Position numbers: made by a program. This document shows positions 27,001 through 64,000 of a stretch of 64,000 nucleotides of DNA, one piece after another (within the stretch, counting starts at the first letter, position 1; the number at the start of each line of letters is the position of its first letter). The stretch comes from Octopus sinensis (lineage: Eukaryota). The DNA lies in assembly GCF_006345805.1 (NCBI RefSeq), contig NC_042998.1, forward strand, positions 14,880,001-14,944,000. Direction: 5' to 3'.

Positions 27001-30000
27001 AAAGCGAATTAAAAAAATCATCAAATTCGTACTGAACACCCTGTGTGTATGTGTGTGTGTGTGCGTGTGTGATTGCGCGTTTCAATATATATATATATAT
27101 ATTATATGTATATATATATGTAATATATATATATGTATATATATATATATATATGTATATATTATAATATATGTATATATATATATATATGTATATTATA
27201 ATATATATATATATATATGTATTAATGCCACAACTATGAGAGAGAATCCACTATGTGGACGCTCTTACGTAGATATAGATCCGCAAATGATTTAGTGTGC
27301 TAAATTTTTTCTTGAGAACAATTCTTAGTGGTCGAGTCCTTTGCGGATCTATATCTAGCGTAAGAGCGTCCACATAGTGGATTCTCTCTCATATTTGTGT
27401 ATTAATAATATTTACTGAATCTCAGTCTTTTATGCGGTAGGCCACTGGTGTTTAAATTGATGTATTAAATTAATATCCAATTTTTTCACCCTCATTTTGA
27501 CTTTAATTATATATATATATATATATATATATATATATATATATATAGAATATAGTTTTTTCACAATACGCACGCTACTCAAATAAAGGTCGACAGTTGT
27601 GCCCATGACTTAGTGTTTGCTTCTTTCATGAGTATGAGTAAGTATCTCATTTATTTCTTTTACCACATGTAGAAGAGAGGGCTCTTAGTAGCTGACTCTG
27701 AAATCGGTCCGATATGGTAATAATGGAATTTTTTAGAAATTTCTGTCGACCTTTATTCGAGTAGCGTGCGTATTGTGAAAAAACTATATGGTTAATGGAC
27801 AATATGTCCAATTTTTCGGCATATTTGGCATTAGAAATTTTTTTTCCCTTGCCCTCATTTATGAATTATATAAATTTAACCGTTAAAGGTATTTTTTAAT
27901 ATGCTGGCCATTGATAAAATTGTTTTCGAGAAAATATTTTTTTTCGAAAAGAATTTTATCCTCACATTTGATATATATATATATATATATATATATATAT
28001 ATATAAGAAAAAGGGACAGGCAAACAGGTTGCTTGACCGCATACCGAAAAAATAGAAATAGCAGTCAAGAATGCTTATTTCTATCAAAGTTGGACTCCGG
28101 GCATGACAAACCCTGTAATTCACATATGCAAAACAGCTTTCCATTGAAAAAGATTTATCATAGATTTATCAAATGCTACGTACCTCAAACCTTCTGACCA
28201 TGCGACATCAAAATATTTGAAGAAAAGCTAAACCTACATAGACGTTTGAATTTTGCCATGCGCATTACAAAAATAGTAATATAATAATAAATAATTTCTA
28301 TAAAGGCTTTTACCGAATTCTACCAGTAAATAATTGGGGTTTTTTTAAAAGCCTTTATAGAAATTATTTACTCTTATTATTATATTACTATTTGGATTTT
28401 TCACTCCCTTATGACAACCTAATTGTTCCCCATCTTATGGAACTATTTTTGTAATGCGCATGGCAAAACTTTGGAGGGAAGATTTACGAATTCAAACGTC
28501 TATGTTGGTTTAGCTTTTGCTCACTTTCTTCAAATATTTTGATGTCGCATGGTCAGAAGGTTTGAGGTACGTAGCATTTGATAAATCTATGATAAATCTT
28601 TTTCAATGGAAAGCTGTGCTGAAGAAGGATGTGAAATATATATACAATGTATATGAAATATATATCAAAAATATATATGGAATATATATTCAATATGTTT
28701 ATAATCCAGAAACATGATGTTCACAGATAACCGCCAGACTTCGTATTCGTTATCTATTCCTTCTGTTTTGCATATGTGAATTACAGGGTTTGTCATGCCC
28801 GGAGTCCAACTTTGATAGAAATAAGCATTCTTGACTGCTATTTCTATTTTTTCGGTATGCGGTCAAGCAACCTGTTTGCCTGTCCCTTTTTCTTATATAC
28901 AATATATATACTGAACTTTACAGAAGTTCCTGCCGGTAATCGGCTATATTTACATATCGAATTCTACCAGTAAATAATTGGGGTTTTTTTTAATAGCCTT
29001 ATAGAAATTATTTACTCTTATTATTATATATATATATATATATATATATATATATATATATATATATATATATATATATGTGTGTGTGTGTGTGTGTGTG
29101 TGTGTTGATAGAAATGGCAAGACAACAAAGGAATAAAAGAGACCTCGATATTGTTTAAATAGAGGAATTTATCTGTAAATATAATATGCGGCAATTATTC
29201 GGTAGCCATGATAAAACTCAGACTTTCGGATGTCGGAGCAGAAACCCACGCTGGCATCTCTTTAGTTATAAGGCCATCGAAAAAGATGCATTTTATATAT
29301 ATATGTACATATATATACATATTATACTACGTATTATATATTTATATTTTATATATATATGTATATCTATGTCTATTTCTCTCTCTCTCTCTCTCTCTCT
29401 CTCTCTCTCTCTCTATATATATATATATATATATATATAAAAATAAAAGTTATTAATATATTATAAATAATATATATATATAAATGAATATATATATGTG
29501 TGTATAAATATATATTCGTTAGTTCAACATCATATATATTATATATATTTATATTTATAATATATATATATATATATATATATATATATATATGTATACA
29601 CCCTACATACATACATTTATATATATATATATATAATATATATATATATATATATATATATATATATTATATGTATGTATTTATAAAGAGAGAGAGAGAG
29701 GGTTTGGGGACAAATAGTGCTTTCTGTGAGATTTAGCTGTTATTCTTGCTCGCCGAAGGACCATGCAGAAACTCCTTAATTGAATCAAATACACTTGAAT
29801 TGAGGCTCTGAGTAAAATGAACTTTCTACTGCAATGAAGAAGGAGAAGAAGAAGGAGGAGGAGGAGGAGAAGAAGAAGAAGAAATGTCGAACAAGAGGTG
29901 CGAATTGACTGAATAAATTGTTGTTAGTGGAAAGCTAACCTAGAAGTTATGCATTTAAATTAATCTTAAAAAGAAGACTTCAGAATAAGAAACATTTTAC

Positions 30001-63000: not shown

Positions 63001-64000
63001 CTTTTTGTGCCTAATAATTTAACACACTCGCCGGTAAAATTTCCACTTATTTCTTAATTTTATTTTTATTTTTATATCAAAATATAAAAATGAAAATAAA
63101 AATAAGAAATAAGTGGGAACTTTACCGGTGGTGTGTGTGTAAAATTATTAGGCACAAAAAGAAAATGACTCTCCCCAGACACAACAGCATATATATTGAA
63201 CTTTACAGAAGTTCCTGCCGGTAATCGGCTATATTTACATACCGAATTCTACCAGTAAATAATTGGGGTTTTTTTAAAAGCCTTTATAGAAATTATTTAC
63301 TCTTATTATTATATATATATATATATATATATATATATATATATATATATATATATATATATATATATATATATATATATATATATATATTCGTTTTGCA
63401 AGATTGGGGAACACAATGGAGTAAGTGGAGCAAGAACACATGGAAACGAAAAGTGTCAGCGAAGAGGTCACAGATGTGTGACGAAAGATTTCTGGACAAT
63501 GGACAGGTGTTAAAATAACAAAATAGCAGTAATTAACGAGTGAAAAAAAATATATACATATAGTGCGTGTGTTTATTTGGCAAAAAAATTTTTAATAAAA
63601 TGACCATACCGAAATACAATATATATATGTGTGTGTTTGTTTGTGTGTGGAAGACATAAGTCAACTACATAGACCCTAGTGTGTAAATGATACTCATTTT
63701 ATTAACCCTGAATATAAAGACGGACAAAATGCTGCCAACCATTTTGTCCGGCGTGTTGGTGAATCATCCAGCTCGCCGCTTTAATAAAAATGATGATAAC
63801 GAATATCTGATTTAGGTGATGAAAGGACATCAGTTTTGAGGGAAGGGTGGAGTAGTATATACCATCGACTAAGGGGCTTGACTAGTAATTTATTTTATCG
63901 AACCCAAAATGGTCAAAAGTAAAGTTGACCTCGGATGGTTTTGAATTCAGAACCAGAACAAATACCGGTTTCGAATTTTGGCATATGACCATCAGTTTCG

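What the first reader, a model, noticed from the sequence alone, without database searches (positions are those of the whole stretch)
27221..63312. A diverse family of hammerhead-bearing, (TA)n-associated fold-back elements (Penelope/retrozyme-like system)
Seen: about ten largely sequence-unrelated non-coding modules (27.6, 28.6, 29.2, 33.5, 48.0, 48.6, 48.9, 52.9, 53.9, 62.7 kb) share no ORF but converge on an HHR-type fold. They lie in or next to (TA)n tracts. Where a module is duplicated, the copies are head-to-head with the ribozyme-sense 3' ends pointing outward into the microsatellite. Several have an extra A or a mismatch at the base of stem II. Known: Penelope-like elements (PLEs) carry minimal type I HHRs in their pseudo-LTRs and often insert with an inverted partial copy, and non-LTR retrozymes are non-autonomous HHR repeats expressed as circRNAs in some metazoans. 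Inference: this genome hosts many non-autonomous HHR elements mobilised by a PLE-type RT that primes on AT microsatellites. About ten types in ~36 kb would imply a very large, mostly unannotated ribozyme load. I cannot confirm it is undescribed.
[Added by the scan's program, not by the reader: the finding's places include an assembly gap (unread letters, written N; its length is only estimated) at 51162 to 51261. Whether the letters on both sides are continuous or in frame is not known: test that first.]
Basis: partly seen in the sequence, partly recalled or inferred. Interest (0 to 1): 0.88.

Follow-up and report, generated by a model that had tools for sequence, protein, structure and literature searches.

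The report
Decayed minimal hammerheads in (TA)n-inserting retroposons
This stretch is a pile-up of short non-coding mobile elements that insert into TA microsatellites, often as head-to-head copies, and a few of them carry a Penelope-type minimal hammerhead ribozyme motif, intact in one and mutated in the others; this kind of element is already described in invertebrate genomes.

Summary
The finding is partly right. Rfam's hammerhead models find nothing, even at E<=10 on slices over all ten modules. Canonical type I/III descriptors and the bare CUGANGA box sit at chance. A descriptor that scores the published hallmarks of Penelope-type "min-HHRs" gives a different result. Those hallmarks are an extra base after A9, a G10.1-C11.1 pair, palindromic 15.2-16.2 and almost no helix III.

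This scan finds five loci in three sequence families: one with an intact core (33454-33501, minus strand), three R2 copies with A6->U, and one with two core changes (52907-52941). A zero-defect locus arose in 1 of 2,482 shuffles. Two or more loci at <=1 defect arose in 0 of 2,482.

Two further modules (27.6, 62.7 kb) resemble the motif weakly, one (48.6) only in its 3' half, and four do not.

The geometry is real. Eight local fold-backs put 8 of 16 outer ends at TA runs (1.2 expected). Families R1 and R2 share exact 3' ends at (TA)n and have variable 5' truncation. The motifs point into (TA)n, 72-101 nt away.

No RT or GIY-YIG ORF lies in the window. Best reading: PLE-type non-autonomous elements, mostly with dead ribozymes. 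This is a known kind of element and of modest interest.

The parts
33454..33501 (-). Min-HHR-like motif with an intact core. Parse: helix I AGACAC/GTGTTT (6 bp), CTGATGA, an extra A, helix II GGC..14 nt..GCC, GAA, ATGT, then T.
   Evidence: Zero defects in the hallmark-aware scan. A zero-defect locus arose in 1 of 2,482 shuffles. It arose in 0 decoy cores other than the two that fit R2's own heptamer. With the core forced unpaired, the fold gives helix I plus helix II at +3.3 kcal/mol over the MFE. Rfam finds nothing here at E<=10.
33397..33550 (-). Main copy of the 33.5 kb element. Its 3' end is a TAAATAATG-like tail at 33397, 57 nt beyond the motif.
   Evidence: tandem repeat 33392-33421.
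33687..33774 (+). Inverted, 5'-truncated copy of the 33.5 kb element, head-to-head with the main copy and with its 3' end outward. It keeps only the 3' half of the motif, with GAAACGT (an ACGT palindrome) at 33700-33715.
   Evidence: 88-nt arms, 89.8% identical; sequence read.
33551..33686 (-). tRNA-like SINE head (about 33605-33685) plus (TAA)16. It is probably a later insertion at the junction of the head-to-head pair.
   Evidence: Direct reading; the A/B-box consensus is recalled. ARAGORN calls no tRNA here. (TTA)16 is. The 'later insertion' reading is an inference.
62257..62445 (+). R2 copy. Motif at 62318-62353: CTTT, CTGTAGA, A, GAGC-GTAG-GCTC, GAA, ACGT, A, AAAG. Its 3' end abuts (TA)8 at 62446-62462.
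   Evidence: One defect (A6->T). The constrained fold gives helix I plus helix II at +1.7 kcal/mol.
47920..48109 (-). Motif at 48010-48045. TA runs lie on both sides (47905-47919 and 48118-48129).
51506..51639 (+). R2 copy, 5'-truncated. Motif at 51513-51548 with box CGGTAGA (two defects). Its 3' end abuts (TA)39.
32153..32230 (+). R2 copy truncated at both ends. It starts inside the motif, so the box is lost. TA-rich on both sides.
   Evidence: Covariance-model hit at 32153-32175, E=3.7e-5.
52794..53041 (+). Element E52.9, lying between two (TA)n tracts. Motif at 52907-52941: GTTT, CCGACAA, A, GAG-CTCCA-CTC, GAA, ACGT, T, AAAC. The motif ends 101 nt before (TA)n.
   Evidence: Two core defects. 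The motif is similar to R2's (z=5.6; 0 of 500 shuffles) while the flanks are only marginally similar (z=1.5-1.7).
62463..62819 (+). Element E62.7. Weak motif at 62701-62748: exact CTGATGA, a 7-bp helix II with an extra T on each side, GAAAC plus the ACAGCTGT palindrome, and a poor helix I. The motif ends 72 nt before (TA)16.
   Evidence: and direct reading. It fails the <=2-defect scan. No Rfam hammerhead hit.
27548..27790 (+). Fold-back E27.6, with arms 27550-27596 and 27743-27789 (98% identical). The left end abuts (TA)20. A weak motif lies at 27660-27720: helix I TTACCA/TGGTAA, a non-canonical core CATGTAGA, and helix III ATCGGTCCGAT.
   Evidence: The parse is by direct reading and was not tested against a null.
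48227..48807 (.). Fold-back with 257-nt arms (96% identical) and a 67-nt spacer. The right end lies in a TA run. Each arm carries only a GAAAC-hairpin-GTC 3' half pointing outward (48380-48395 minus strand, 48639-48654 plus strand).
53093..54183 (.). Compound insertion of three parts: an inverted copy [B A] at 53093-53609, a direct-repeat segment B' at 53616-53769, and a main copy [A' B'partial] at 53763-54183. (TA)n lies on both sides. No hammerhead-like motif.
   Evidence: A/A' are 334 nt and 99.7-100% identical; B/B' are 96.5-98% identical; the direct repeat 53616-53679 versus 54105-54169 is 97% identical.
27988..28910 (.). Large palindrome with outer arms 98.7-100% identical. TA runs lie at both ends.
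28277..28385 (.). Head-to-head pair of 5'-truncated R1 3' parts (about 32 nt inverted plus 75 nt) at the centre of the 28 kb palindrome.
63189..63309 (+). Solo R1 copy with a 3' hairpin and then TCTTATTAT, directly followed by (TA)40. A second solo copy at 28904-29024 is followed by (TA)27.
   Evidence: 95.9% identical over 122 nt, both ending at the tract.
62970..63192 (.). Self-palindromic element (88% identical arms). Its right end lies at a TA run directly before R1.
   Evidence: (hairpin noise hits on both strands).
27212..27414 (.). Older palindrome (83% identical arms) starting inside (AT)72.
39702..39981 (.). Fold-back with 83-nt arms (96% identical). It is not at a TA run.
39985..40353 (-). 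Mariner (Mos1-type) transposase remnant. Its end abuts (TA)12 at 40354-40378.
   Evidence: HTH_48 at E=1.1e-13, 51.5 bits against a cut-off of 24.1, for 40030-40248; read.
51162..51261 (.). Assembly gap. It is not part of any feature.

Best explanation
The span is a nest of short (about 110-360 nt), ORF-less retroposon-like elements that insert into (TA)n microsatellites or end in them.

SHOWN BY THE SEQUENCE.
- Dispersed families share an exact 3' end at (TA)n and are cut short at variable 5' positions.
- TA runs usually lie on both sides of a copy.
- Many insertions are head-to-head pairs with both 3' ends outward. One also has a partial tandem (pLTR-like) segment.
- In three sequence families a minimal type I hammerhead motif lies in the element's sense, 57-101 nt upstream of the 3' end. 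It has the published PLE hallmarks: an extra base after A9, a G10.1-C11.1 pair, palindromic ACGU/AUGU in place of helix III, and a 4-6 bp helix I. The core is intact in one locus and mutated in the rest.

INFERRED.
- These are non-autonomous derivatives or truncated pLTR pieces of Penelope-like elements, copied in trans by a PLE RT/GIY-YIG enzyme encoded elsewhere in the genome.
- The nicked (TA)n target anneals to a UA-rich RNA 3' end and primes reverse transcription.
- Because (TA)n is self-complementary, both strands of the break can prime. This would give two cDNAs that meet head-to-head at different truncation points, and template jumps would give partial tandems.
- The min-HHR, which needs two copies to form helix III, would trim multimeric transcripts in active masters. 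In the copies seen here it is mostly a dead relic.
For: MOTIF.
- The hallmark-aware scan gives 1 zero-defect, 2 one-defect and 2 two-defect loci, and none in the reversed sequence.
- In 300 shuffles the mean was 0 / 0.037 / 0.37 per defect class, and >=3 loci at <=2 defects occurred in 1 of 300.
- In 2,482 shuffles a zero-defect locus arose in 1, and >=2 loci at <=1 defect in 0.
- Of 600 decoy cores run on the real sequence, only 2 gave a zero-defect locus, and both fit R2's own heptamer.
- All 5 loci have the extra nucleotide and a G-C closing pair.
- The descriptor recovered 100 of 100 planted type I and 100 of 100 planted type III consensus ribozymes.
- The R2 and E52.9 motifs are alike (z=5.6; 0 of 500 shuffles) while their flanks are not clearly alike (z=1.5-1.7). 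The outermost helix I pair is C-G in R2 and G-C in E52.9.

RETROPOSON ARCHITECTURE.
- In the R2 alignment, 3 of 4 copies end in the same bases before (TA)n, the 5' ends differ, and TA runs lie on both sides in 3 of 4.
- R1 occurs as two solo copies plus one head-to-head truncated pair.
- The flanks of TA tracts align up to the tract in one orientation for R1, R2 and R3.
- 8 of 16 fold-back ends lie at TA runs, against 1.21 expected; 0 of 20,000 random placements reached 8.
- The 53 kb locus has an inverted copy, a direct repeat and a main copy.
- Arm identities range from 83% to 100%, so the process recurred over time.
- The motif ends 92, 92 and 93 nt (R2), 101 nt (E52.9) and 72 nt (E62.7) before (TA)n.

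LITERATURE.
- PMC4209133 (sections 5 and 11 read in full, plus passages) gives the min-HHR hallmarks, their heterogeneity, mostly solitary copies from truncated PLEs, and opposite-strand pairs.
- PMC8557442 (passages) describes (TA)n as a preferred Naiad target, 5' truncation, pLTRs, an adjacent inverted 5'-truncated copy, and non-autonomous PLEs that share 3' ends with autonomous ones.
Against: - Rfam's hammerhead models find nothing.
- Canonical descriptors and the partial motif are at chance. The relaxed canonical descriptor gave 2 loci, against 3 in the reversed control and 2-8 in 10 shuffles. The partial motif gave 14 loci, against 10.6+-3.4.
- I wrote the hallmark-aware descriptor after I had seen the two best hits. 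It is rebuilt from the paper's text, because the paper's figure and supplement were not available.
- Only 1 of 5 loci has an intact core. Helix II is 3-4 bp, whereas the paper reports 6-8 bp.
- The unconstrained MFE does not adopt the hammerhead fold in any of the 9 look-alikes I folded.
- A covariance model built from R2 and E52.9 scores the 33.5 kb motif only in the noise (10.1 bits, E=8.9) and finds no new instance.
- No RT or GIY-YIG domain was found in 19 + 145 + 148 + 92 ORF translations.
- Five of the eight fold-backs, and family R1, have no motif at all.
- The (TA)n-targeting PLE clade described in print (Naiad) lacks canonical HHRs. That paper also says Naiads in cephalopods are old remnants, which matters only if this is a cephalopod, and I could not establish that.
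- The 53 kb layout could also arise from template switching at inverted repeats at the DNA level.
Confidence: 0.55

Rival explanations
1. These are ordinary SINE/LINE-type retroposons with microsatellite tails, and the hammerhead resemblance has no biological meaning. A LINE whose 3' tail is (TA)n mobilises the short elements. Head-to-head pairs arise by L1-style twin priming. The motif is chance, or a conserved block with some other role.
For: - Family R3 (39331-39544, 49563-49705, 52349-52562, 58737-58922) is a tRNA-like SINE whose 3' ends also lie within 3-15 nt of microsatellites.
- The 33.5 kb element has a TAAATAATG-type tail, not a (TA)n tail.
- R1 and most fold-backs have no motif.
- Rfam is negative.
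- Four of five motif loci have mutated cores.
Against: - The zero-defect and one-defect loci are far above three kinds of null.
- They carry features that were published as PLE min-HHR hallmarks before I looked (PMC4209133).
- The inverted copy plus direct repeat plus main copy at 53 kb, and (TA)n targeting, are described for PLEs (PMC8557442).
- No LINE ORF lies in the window either.
Confidence: 0.2
2. The fold-backs are DNA-level structures. They are either MITE or foldback transposons of a TA-targeting superfamily such as Tc1/mariner, or palindromes made by template switching or hairpin repair at cruciform-prone (TA)n. In either case they are unrelated to reverse transcription.
For: - A mariner transposase remnant ends directly at a (TA)12 tract.
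- Mariner's TA target is established knowledge (recalled).
- The single-copy palindromes at 27.2, 28.0, 48.2 and 63.0 kb cannot be told apart from long-TIR elements within one window.
- The order B A B' A' B' at 53 kb is what a strand switch at inverted repeats would give (my reasoning).
Against: - R1 and R2 copies share only one end and lack inverted termini.
- R1 forms a head-to-head pair from a family that is otherwise solo.
- Fold-back termini show no similarity to each other or to the mariner end.
- The TA runs lie at the outer ends of the palindromes, not at their centres.
Confidence: 0.12
3. One reading: about ten distinct families of functional hammerhead-bearing elements, a large unannotated ribozyme load and a new system.
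For: - Three families pass the statistical test.
- Two more modules have a three-helix layout (direct reading).
- The published min-HHRs are described as extremely variable (PMC4209133).
Against: - Only one core is intact.
- Four modules show no motif.
- Rfam is negative.
- The phenomenon is already in print.
Confidence: 0.05
4. The two perfectly identical inverted duplications (outer arms at 28.0 kb, segment A at 53 kb) are assembly artefacts.
For: Arms of 137 nt and 334 nt are 100% identical, next to long (TA)n tracts that are hard to assemble. PMC8557442 notes that such structures trouble assemblies.
Against: The other six fold-backs are 83-98% identical, so the class as a whole is real. 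The arms are short and internal to the contig.
Confidence: 0.05

Closest known systems
Minimal hammerhead ribozymes (min-HHRs) of Penelope-like elements (Cervera & de la Pena 2014, PMC4209133)
   Same: - Type I topology with essentially no helix III.
- An unpaired nucleotide between A9 and G10.1.
- A G10.1-C11.1 pair and palindromic 15.2-16.2.
- A helix I of 4-6 bp.
- Heterogeneous in sequence and mostly solitary.
- Sometimes found as pairs on opposite strands a few hundred bp apart.
   Different: - Helix II is 3-4 bp here, against the reported 6-8 bp.
- Four of five loci have core substitutions (A6->U; U4->C plus G8->A) that are not among the variants named in the passages I read (U3-A8).
- No flanking PLE ORF lies in the window.
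- Cleavage is untested.
Naiad-clade PLE insertions (Craig et al. 2021, PMC8557442)
   Same: - (TA)n is the preferred target.
- Strong 5' truncation.
- Partial tandems (pLTRs).
- An inverted 5'-truncated copy next to the main copy.
- Non-autonomous PLE relatives that keep the 3' end are described in that paper for Chlamys.
   Different: - Naiads are reported to lack canonical hammerheads, while some elements here have a min-HHR-like motif.
- All elements here are 110-560 nt and ORF-less.
- The 30-40 bp 'tail' extension was not examined.
Non-LTR retrozymes (Cervera & de la Pena 2020, PMC7229834; Li et al. 2026 preprint, 10.64898/2026.07.22.740005)
   Same: Short, non-coding elements bearing a type I hammerhead, proposed to be non-autonomous partners or derivatives of PLEs.
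   Different: - Retrozymes are tandem arrays of 170-400 bp units with canonical type I HHRs.
- Here the motif-bearing copies are solitary, or inverted pairs.
- The motif is the minimal variant.
- The tandem arrays in this window (periods 183-190 nt) gave no hammerhead hit.
L1 twin priming (recalled; the listing includes PMC2837659)
   Same: Two priming events at one break give an inverted, truncated arrangement.
   Different: Here both outer ends are element 3' ends set in a self-complementary microsatellite. Applying twin priming to this case is my own inference.
Tc1/mariner-derived MITEs
   Same: Short, non-coding, associated with TA sites and carrying inverted repeats. A mariner remnant is present at 40.0-40.35 kb.
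   Different: R1 and R2 have one conserved end and a variable other end. No shared terminal inverted repeat was found.

Membership tests
Hammerhead ribozyme as modelled in Rfam 15 | A match to a hammerhead covariance model | tested here: not met
   No hammerhead family appears at gathering score. None appears among the 150 listed of 164 hits at E<=10 (the 14 lowest were not shown). None appears at E<=10 on six slices of 188-1,477 nt covering all ten modules.
PLE min-HHR (PMC4209133) | Conserved catalytic core CUGANGA ... GAAA ... UH | tested here: inconclusive
   The core is intact in 1 of 5 loci (33454-33501). R2 has CUGUAGA (two copies) or CGGUAGA (one copy). E52.9 has CCGACAA.
PLE min-HHR (PMC4209133) | [quoted passage not shown] | tested here: met
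   5 of 5 loci have one extra A. The descriptor allowed either 0 or 1 extra nucleotide.
PLE min-HHR (PMC4209133) | A conserved G10.1-C11.1 pair | tested here: met
   5 of 5 loci.
PLE min-HHR (PMC4209133) | Palindromic 15.2-16.2, with no or minimal helix III | tested here: met
   ACGU in 4 of 5 loci and in the inverted sister copy at 33700-33715. AUGU (a wobble pair) in the main 33.5 kb copy.
PLE min-HHR (PMC4209133) | Short helix I (4-5 bp) and long helix II (6-8 bp) | tested here: inconclusive
   Helix I is 4-6 bp, which fits. Helix II is 3-4 bp, shorter than reported.
PLE min-HHR (PMC4209133) | Located in the pLTR of a PLE that encodes RT and GIY-YIG, or traceable to one | tested here: not met
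   No RT or GIY-YIG domain was found in 19 of 32 ORFs >=110 aa, 145 ORFs >=45 aa from 48.2-63.9 kb, 148 of 205 ORFs >=45 aa from 27.2-48.2 kb, or 92 of 110 ORFs >=58 aa from 1-27.2 kb. Tracing the elements to a PLE elsewhere in the genome is not possible with these tools.
PLE min-HHR (PMC4209133) | Genome-wide consensus families with compensatory changes | not testable with these tools
   Only one window is held, and no eukaryotic collection is open. The single observation is a C-G versus G-C exchange at the outer helix I pair between R2 and E52.9.
PLE min-HHR (PMC4209133) | Self-cleavage, as a dimer | not testable with these tools
   This needs transcription and cleavage assays.
Non-LTR retrozyme (PMC7229834) | Tandem repeats of about 170-400 bp, each unit holding a canonical type I HHR | tested here: not met
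   Motif-bearing copies are solitary or inverted pairs. The tandem arrays at 38387-38732 and 57110-57889 gave no hit in any descriptor scan.
PLE-type insertion architecture (PMC8557442) | (TA)n target, 5' truncation, adjacent inverted 5'-truncated copy, partial tandem | tested here: met
   The 30-40 bp tail extension was not tested.
Tc1/mariner MITE | Terminal inverted repeats shared by all copies, uniform length, TA target-site duplication | tested here: not met
   R1 and R2 copies share one end only. For the single-copy fold-backs the test is inconclusive, because a TA duplication cannot be recognised inside a TA run.

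The most novel reading that the evidence does not exclude
The shared layout, a min-HHR-like junction followed by 57-101 nt and then the 3' end in a microsatellite, may define a class of ultra-short 'PLE-SINEs'. These would be sequence-unrelated non-autonomous elements recognised by a PLE enzyme through the ribozyme-like fold rather than through sequence. They would insert by double priming on self-complementary (TA)n, which would explain mechanistically why PLE insertions so often carry an inverted twin. In this reading the block conserved between R2 and E52.9 (AAGAGC...CTCGAAACGU) is kept by selection even though the catalytic core is non-canonical. It would then serve as a recognition or processing signal rather than as a canonical self-cleaver.
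Probability: 0.2. Interest if true: 0.6.

Novelty: new member of a known kind. Interest (0 to 1): 0.3.

Why it matters
Minimal hammerheads, PLE microsatellite targeting and PLE inverted or tandem insertion structures are each already published, so this window adds examples rather than a new principle.

Two points could be useful to specialists if they hold genome-wide.
- The min-HHR-like motif and (TA)n targeting occur together in very short ORF-less elements. The (TA)n-targeting clade described in print is the one said to lack hammerheads.
- The regular spacing of the motif from the 3' end, and the head-to-head twins with both 3' ends in a self-complementary repeat, suggest a concrete and testable priming model for the still unexplained PLE insertion geometry.

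There is also a methodological point. Rfam's hammerhead models and canonical descriptors missed every one of these loci. Genome annotations that rely on them will under-count this motif class.

Tried and rejected
- **Rfam scans.** Gathering threshold, E<=10 on the whole window, and six slices all found no hammerhead.
- **CUGANGA frequency.** 28 occurrences against 23.4+-4.5 expected; 20 of 100 shuffles reached 28.
- **Strict type I/III descriptor.** 0 hits.
- **Relaxed canonical descriptor.** 0 hits with an exact core. 2 hits with one mismatch, neither at a reader module, against 3 in the reversed sequence and 2-8 in 10 shuffles.
- **Partial motif (box, stem II, GAAA).** 14 loci, 2 with an exact box, against 10.6+-3.4 and 0.58+-0.76; 19 and 12 of 100 shuffles reached the real values.
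- **My own reversal.** On these results I first concluded 'no hammerheads'. I withdrew that after the minimal type I scan and after reading PMC4209133.
- **MFE folding of nine look-alikes.** None adopts the junction unconstrained. With the core forced single-stranded, the 33.5 kb motif and R2 at 62.3 kb form helix I plus helix II at +3.3 and +1.7 kcal/mol; the others do not.
- **Covariance model from R2 (three copies) plus E52.9.** No new instances, and the 33.5 kb motif scores in the noise. A five-sequence alignment that included 33.5 was mis-registered by MAFFT and not used.
- **Distant homology of R2 and E52.9.** The flanks are not significant (z=1.5-1.7; 40 and 45 of 500 shuffles). I therefore do not claim that the two decayed independently from one canonical ancestor, although their defects fall at different core positions.
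- **Shared 3' tails among elements.** None found beyond TA-rich strings.
- **A chimeric tRNA-headed SINE with a PLE tail at 33.5 kb.** Rejected in favour of a secondary SINE insertion, because the (TAA)16 tail sits between the two parts.
- **Naming the organism.** ARAGORN found 0 tRNAs. Searches for six window strings in papers gave 0 papers. A protein search with the mariner fragment gave 2 unnamed proteins. My impression that this is a cephalopod is recalled and unverified, so statements about cephalopod PLEs are conditional.
- **Collections and supplements.** The published min-HHR descriptor (their figure 1B and figure S7) and alignments were not seen and may differ from my reconstruction.

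Full report
**What was claimed.** They were said to converge on a hammerhead (HHR) fold, to lie at (TA)n tracts, and to be head-to-head with their 3' ends outward wherever duplicated.

**The gap.** The N run at 51162-51261 is flanked by unique sequence. The nearest repeat is an R2 copy that starts at 51506. No claimed feature touches or spans the gap. Continuity across it is unknown and irrelevant to the result.

**Standard hammerhead tests are negative.**
- Rfam 15 at gathering score finds only a 5S rRNA-like sequence.
- At E<=10 the whole window gives 164 hits. The 150 listed are almost all microsatellite or hairpin noise against microRNA models, and none is a hammerhead. The 14 lowest-scoring hits were not shown.
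- Six slices of 188-1,477 nt that together cover all ten modules give 8, 17, 9, 1, 4 and 0 hits at E<=10, none a hammerhead.
- CUGANGA occurs 28 times against 23.4+-4.5 expected.
- A strict type I/III descriptor finds nothing.
- A relaxed canonical descriptor finds 0 loci with an exact core. It finds 2 one-mismatch loci, neither at a reader module, against 3 in the reversed sequence and 2-8 in 10 shuffles.
- The partial motif (box, stem II, GAAA) gives 14 loci, 2 with an exact box, against 10.6+-3.4 and 0.58+-0.76 in 100 shuffles.
- The relaxed descriptor recovered 100 of 100 planted type I and 100 of 100 planted type III consensus ribozymes, so it works.

On this evidence I first concluded that there were no hammerheads. 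That conclusion was wrong.

**The minimal, PLE-type motif is present.** When I let helix III shrink to A15.1/U16.1 and allowed one extra base at the foot of stem II, two reader modules closed a complete helix I. I then read Cervera & de la Pena 2014 (PMC4209133: sections 5 and 11 in full, plus passages). They define "min-HHRs" in PLE pseudo-LTRs by these features:
- no real helix III, with action as dimers;
- an unpaired nucleotide between A9 and G10.1;
- a conserved G10.1-C11.1 pair;
- palindromic 15.2-16.2;
- a helix I of 4-5 bp;
- a usually long helix II;
- extreme sequence heterogeneity;
- mostly solitary copies from truncated PLEs, and some pairs 100-700 bp apart on opposite strands.

A scan that scores these hallmarks as defects finds five loci:

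| Locus | Strand | Defects | Core |
|---|---|---|---|
| 33454-33501 | - | 0 | CUGAUGA, intact |
| 62318-62353 (R2) | + | 1 | CUGUAGA (A6->U) |
| 48010-48045 (R2) | - | 1 | CUGUAGA (A6->U) |
| 51513-51548 (R2) | + | 2 | CGGUAGA |
| 52907-52941 (E52.9) | + | 2 | CCGACAA |

All five loci have the extra A and a G-C closing pair. Four have ACGU; the 33.5 kb copy has AUGU, and its inverted sister copy has ACGU.

The controls are as follows.
- The reversed sequence gives none.
- 300 shuffles average 0, 0.037 and 0.37 loci per defect class.
- In 2,482 shuffles a zero-defect locus arose once, and two or more loci at <=1 defect never arose.
- Of 600 decoy cores run on the real sequence, only two gave a zero-defect locus, and both simply fit R2's own heptamer.

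Caveats:
- I wrote this descriptor after seeing the best hits.
- I rebuilt it from the paper's text, because figures and supplements were not available.
- Helix II is only 3-4 bp.
- Unconstrained MFE folds do not adopt the junction. With the core held single-stranded, the 33.5 kb motif and R2 at 62.3 kb form helix I plus helix II at +3.3 and +1.7 kcal/mol.
- A covariance model built from R2 and E52.9 finds only its own family and the truncated R2 copy at 32153-32175 (E=3.7e-5). It scores the 33.5 kb motif in the noise.

**Score card for the ten modules.**
- Supported: 33.5, 48.0 (= R2) and 52.9.
- Weak, with a three-helix layout read directly but no statistic:
  - 27.6 (27660-27720) has a 6-bp helix I, a non-canonical core CAUGUAGA and a palindromic helix III.
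  - 62.7 (62701-62748) has an exact CUGAUGA, a 7-bp helix II with an extra U on both sides, an ACAGCUGU palindrome and a poor helix I.
- 3' half only: 48.6, with GAAAC-hairpin-GUC in both arms, pointing outward.
- Not supported: 28.6 (an AT-rich insert in one palindrome arm), 29.2, 48.9 (the box sits in a hairpin loop) and 53.9 (GUAAAC rather than GAAAC, and a 2-bp helix II).

**The elements are unrelated apart from the motif.** BLAST and local alignment find no similarity between families outside TA-rich strings. R2 and E52.9 have a motif far more alike than chance (z=5.6; 0 of 500 shuffles) but flanks that are only marginally alike (z=1.5-1.7). The outer helix I pair is C-G in one and G-C in the other.

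**The geometry is real, and it is wider than the ribozyme motif.**
- The span is (TA)n-dense. 36 of 44 tracts lie at >=27 kb.
- R2 has four copies. Three end in the same bases directly before (TA)n, the 5' ends differ, and three have TA runs on both sides.
- R1 has two solo copies that end in a hairpin plus TCTTATTAT before (TA)27 and (TA)40. It also has one head-to-head pair of truncated 3' parts.
- A census finds eight non-SINE local fold-backs, all within 27-64 kb. Their arms are 83-100% identical. 8 of 16 outer ends lie within 10 nt of a TA run, against 1.21+-1.10 for random placement; 0 of 20,000 placements reached 8.
- The 53 kb locus reads as an inverted copy, a direct-repeat segment and a main copy, with (TA)n on both sides.
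- The motif always lies in the element's sense. It ends 92, 92 and 93 nt (R2), 101 nt (E52.9) and 72 nt (E62.7) before the (TA)n tract. In the 27.6 and 33.5 kb elements it ends 69 and 57 nt before the element's end.
- Elements form chains, each ending in its own TA tract. One example runs R2, (TA)8, E62.7, (TA)16(TATG)24, a palindrome, R1, (TA)40.
- Five of the eight fold-backs, and R1, have no hammerhead-like motif.

**No enzyme in the window.** I scanned 19 of 32 ORFs >=110 aa. I also scanned 145 ORFs >=45 aa from 48.2-63.9 kb, 148 of 205 from 27.2-48.2 kb and 92 of 110 ORFs >=58 aa from the first 27 kb. The only real domain is a Mos1-type transposase HTH at 40030-40248 (E=1e-13). It belongs to a mariner remnant whose end abuts (TA)12.

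**Interpretation.** The architecture matches what Craig et al. 2021 (PMC8557442, passages) describe for PLE insertions:
- (TA)n as a preferred target (for Naiads);
- 5' truncation;
- partial tandems;
- an adjacent inverted 5'-truncated copy;
- non-autonomous relatives that keep the 3' end.

Together with the min-HHR hallmarks, the best reading is that these are PLE-dependent non-autonomous elements or truncated pLTR pieces, most with decayed ribozymes.

My mechanistic proposal is inference only. It is that self-complementary (TA)n lets both strands of the break prime on UA-rich RNA ends, which gives head-to-head twins.

Points against the PLE reading:
- No PLE ORF is present.
- The published (TA)n-targeting clade lacks hammerheads.
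- SINE family R3 and the 33.5 kb element show that microsatellite-tailed retroposition in this genome is not limited to (TA)n or to motif-bearing elements.
- DNA-level explanations remain possible for the single-copy palindromes.

**Novelty.** My searches found papers that describe each ingredient separately. None in those listings links min-HHR-bearing short elements to (TA)n, but the search was not exhaustive and supplements were closed. I rate this a new member of a known kind. The organism could not be named. Statements in PMC8557442 and PMC13282606 about cephalopod PLEs apply only if my unverified impression of a cephalopod origin is right.

Noticed in passing
5940-6055 (-): A 5S rRNA-like sequence (63.7 bits, full model length), alone in a non-coding stretch. 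It could be a pseudogene or the head of a 5S-derived SINE.
   Followed up: no
38387-38732 and 57110-57889: Head-to-tail arrays (1.8 and 4.3 units, periods 190 and 183 nt) of the commonest SINE-like family in the window (GTTCTGAGTTCAAATTCCGCCGAGGTCGAC...). The unit size is that of a retrozyme, but no descriptor found a hammerhead in it.
   Followed up: partly
59802-59993, 60452-60637, 60699-60884: The same SINE-like family occurs as one inverted copy followed by two direct copies 247 nt apart (arms 90-92% identical). This is the same inverted-plus-tandem layout as at 53 kb.
   Followed up: partly
39985-40353 (-): A truncated mariner (Mos1-type) transposase remnant. Its terminus abuts (TA)12, and it is cut off on the other side by another repeat.
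   Followed up: partly
39331-39544, 49563-49705, 52349-52562, 58737-58922: Family R3, a tRNA-like SINE (86-92% identity between copies). Its 3' ends lie 3-15 nt from TA, ACAT or AC microsatellites.
   Followed up: partly
44229-44699: A 204-nt tandem repeat (2.3 copies, 97% identical). Each unit contains an (ATA)n run.
   Followed up: no
4178-4328: A 63-nt tandem repeat (2.4 copies, 88% identical).
   Followed up: no
62318-62353 versus 52907-52941: A 35-nt block (AAGAGC ... CTCGAAACGT.AAA) is conserved between two elements whose flanks are barely alignable. This suggests constraint on the motif, or modular exchange between elements.
   Followed up: partly
41667-42238: Long compound microsatellites, (ACAT)85 then (ATCT)28, account for most of the spurious microRNA-family hits in the permissive Rfam scan.
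   Followed up: no
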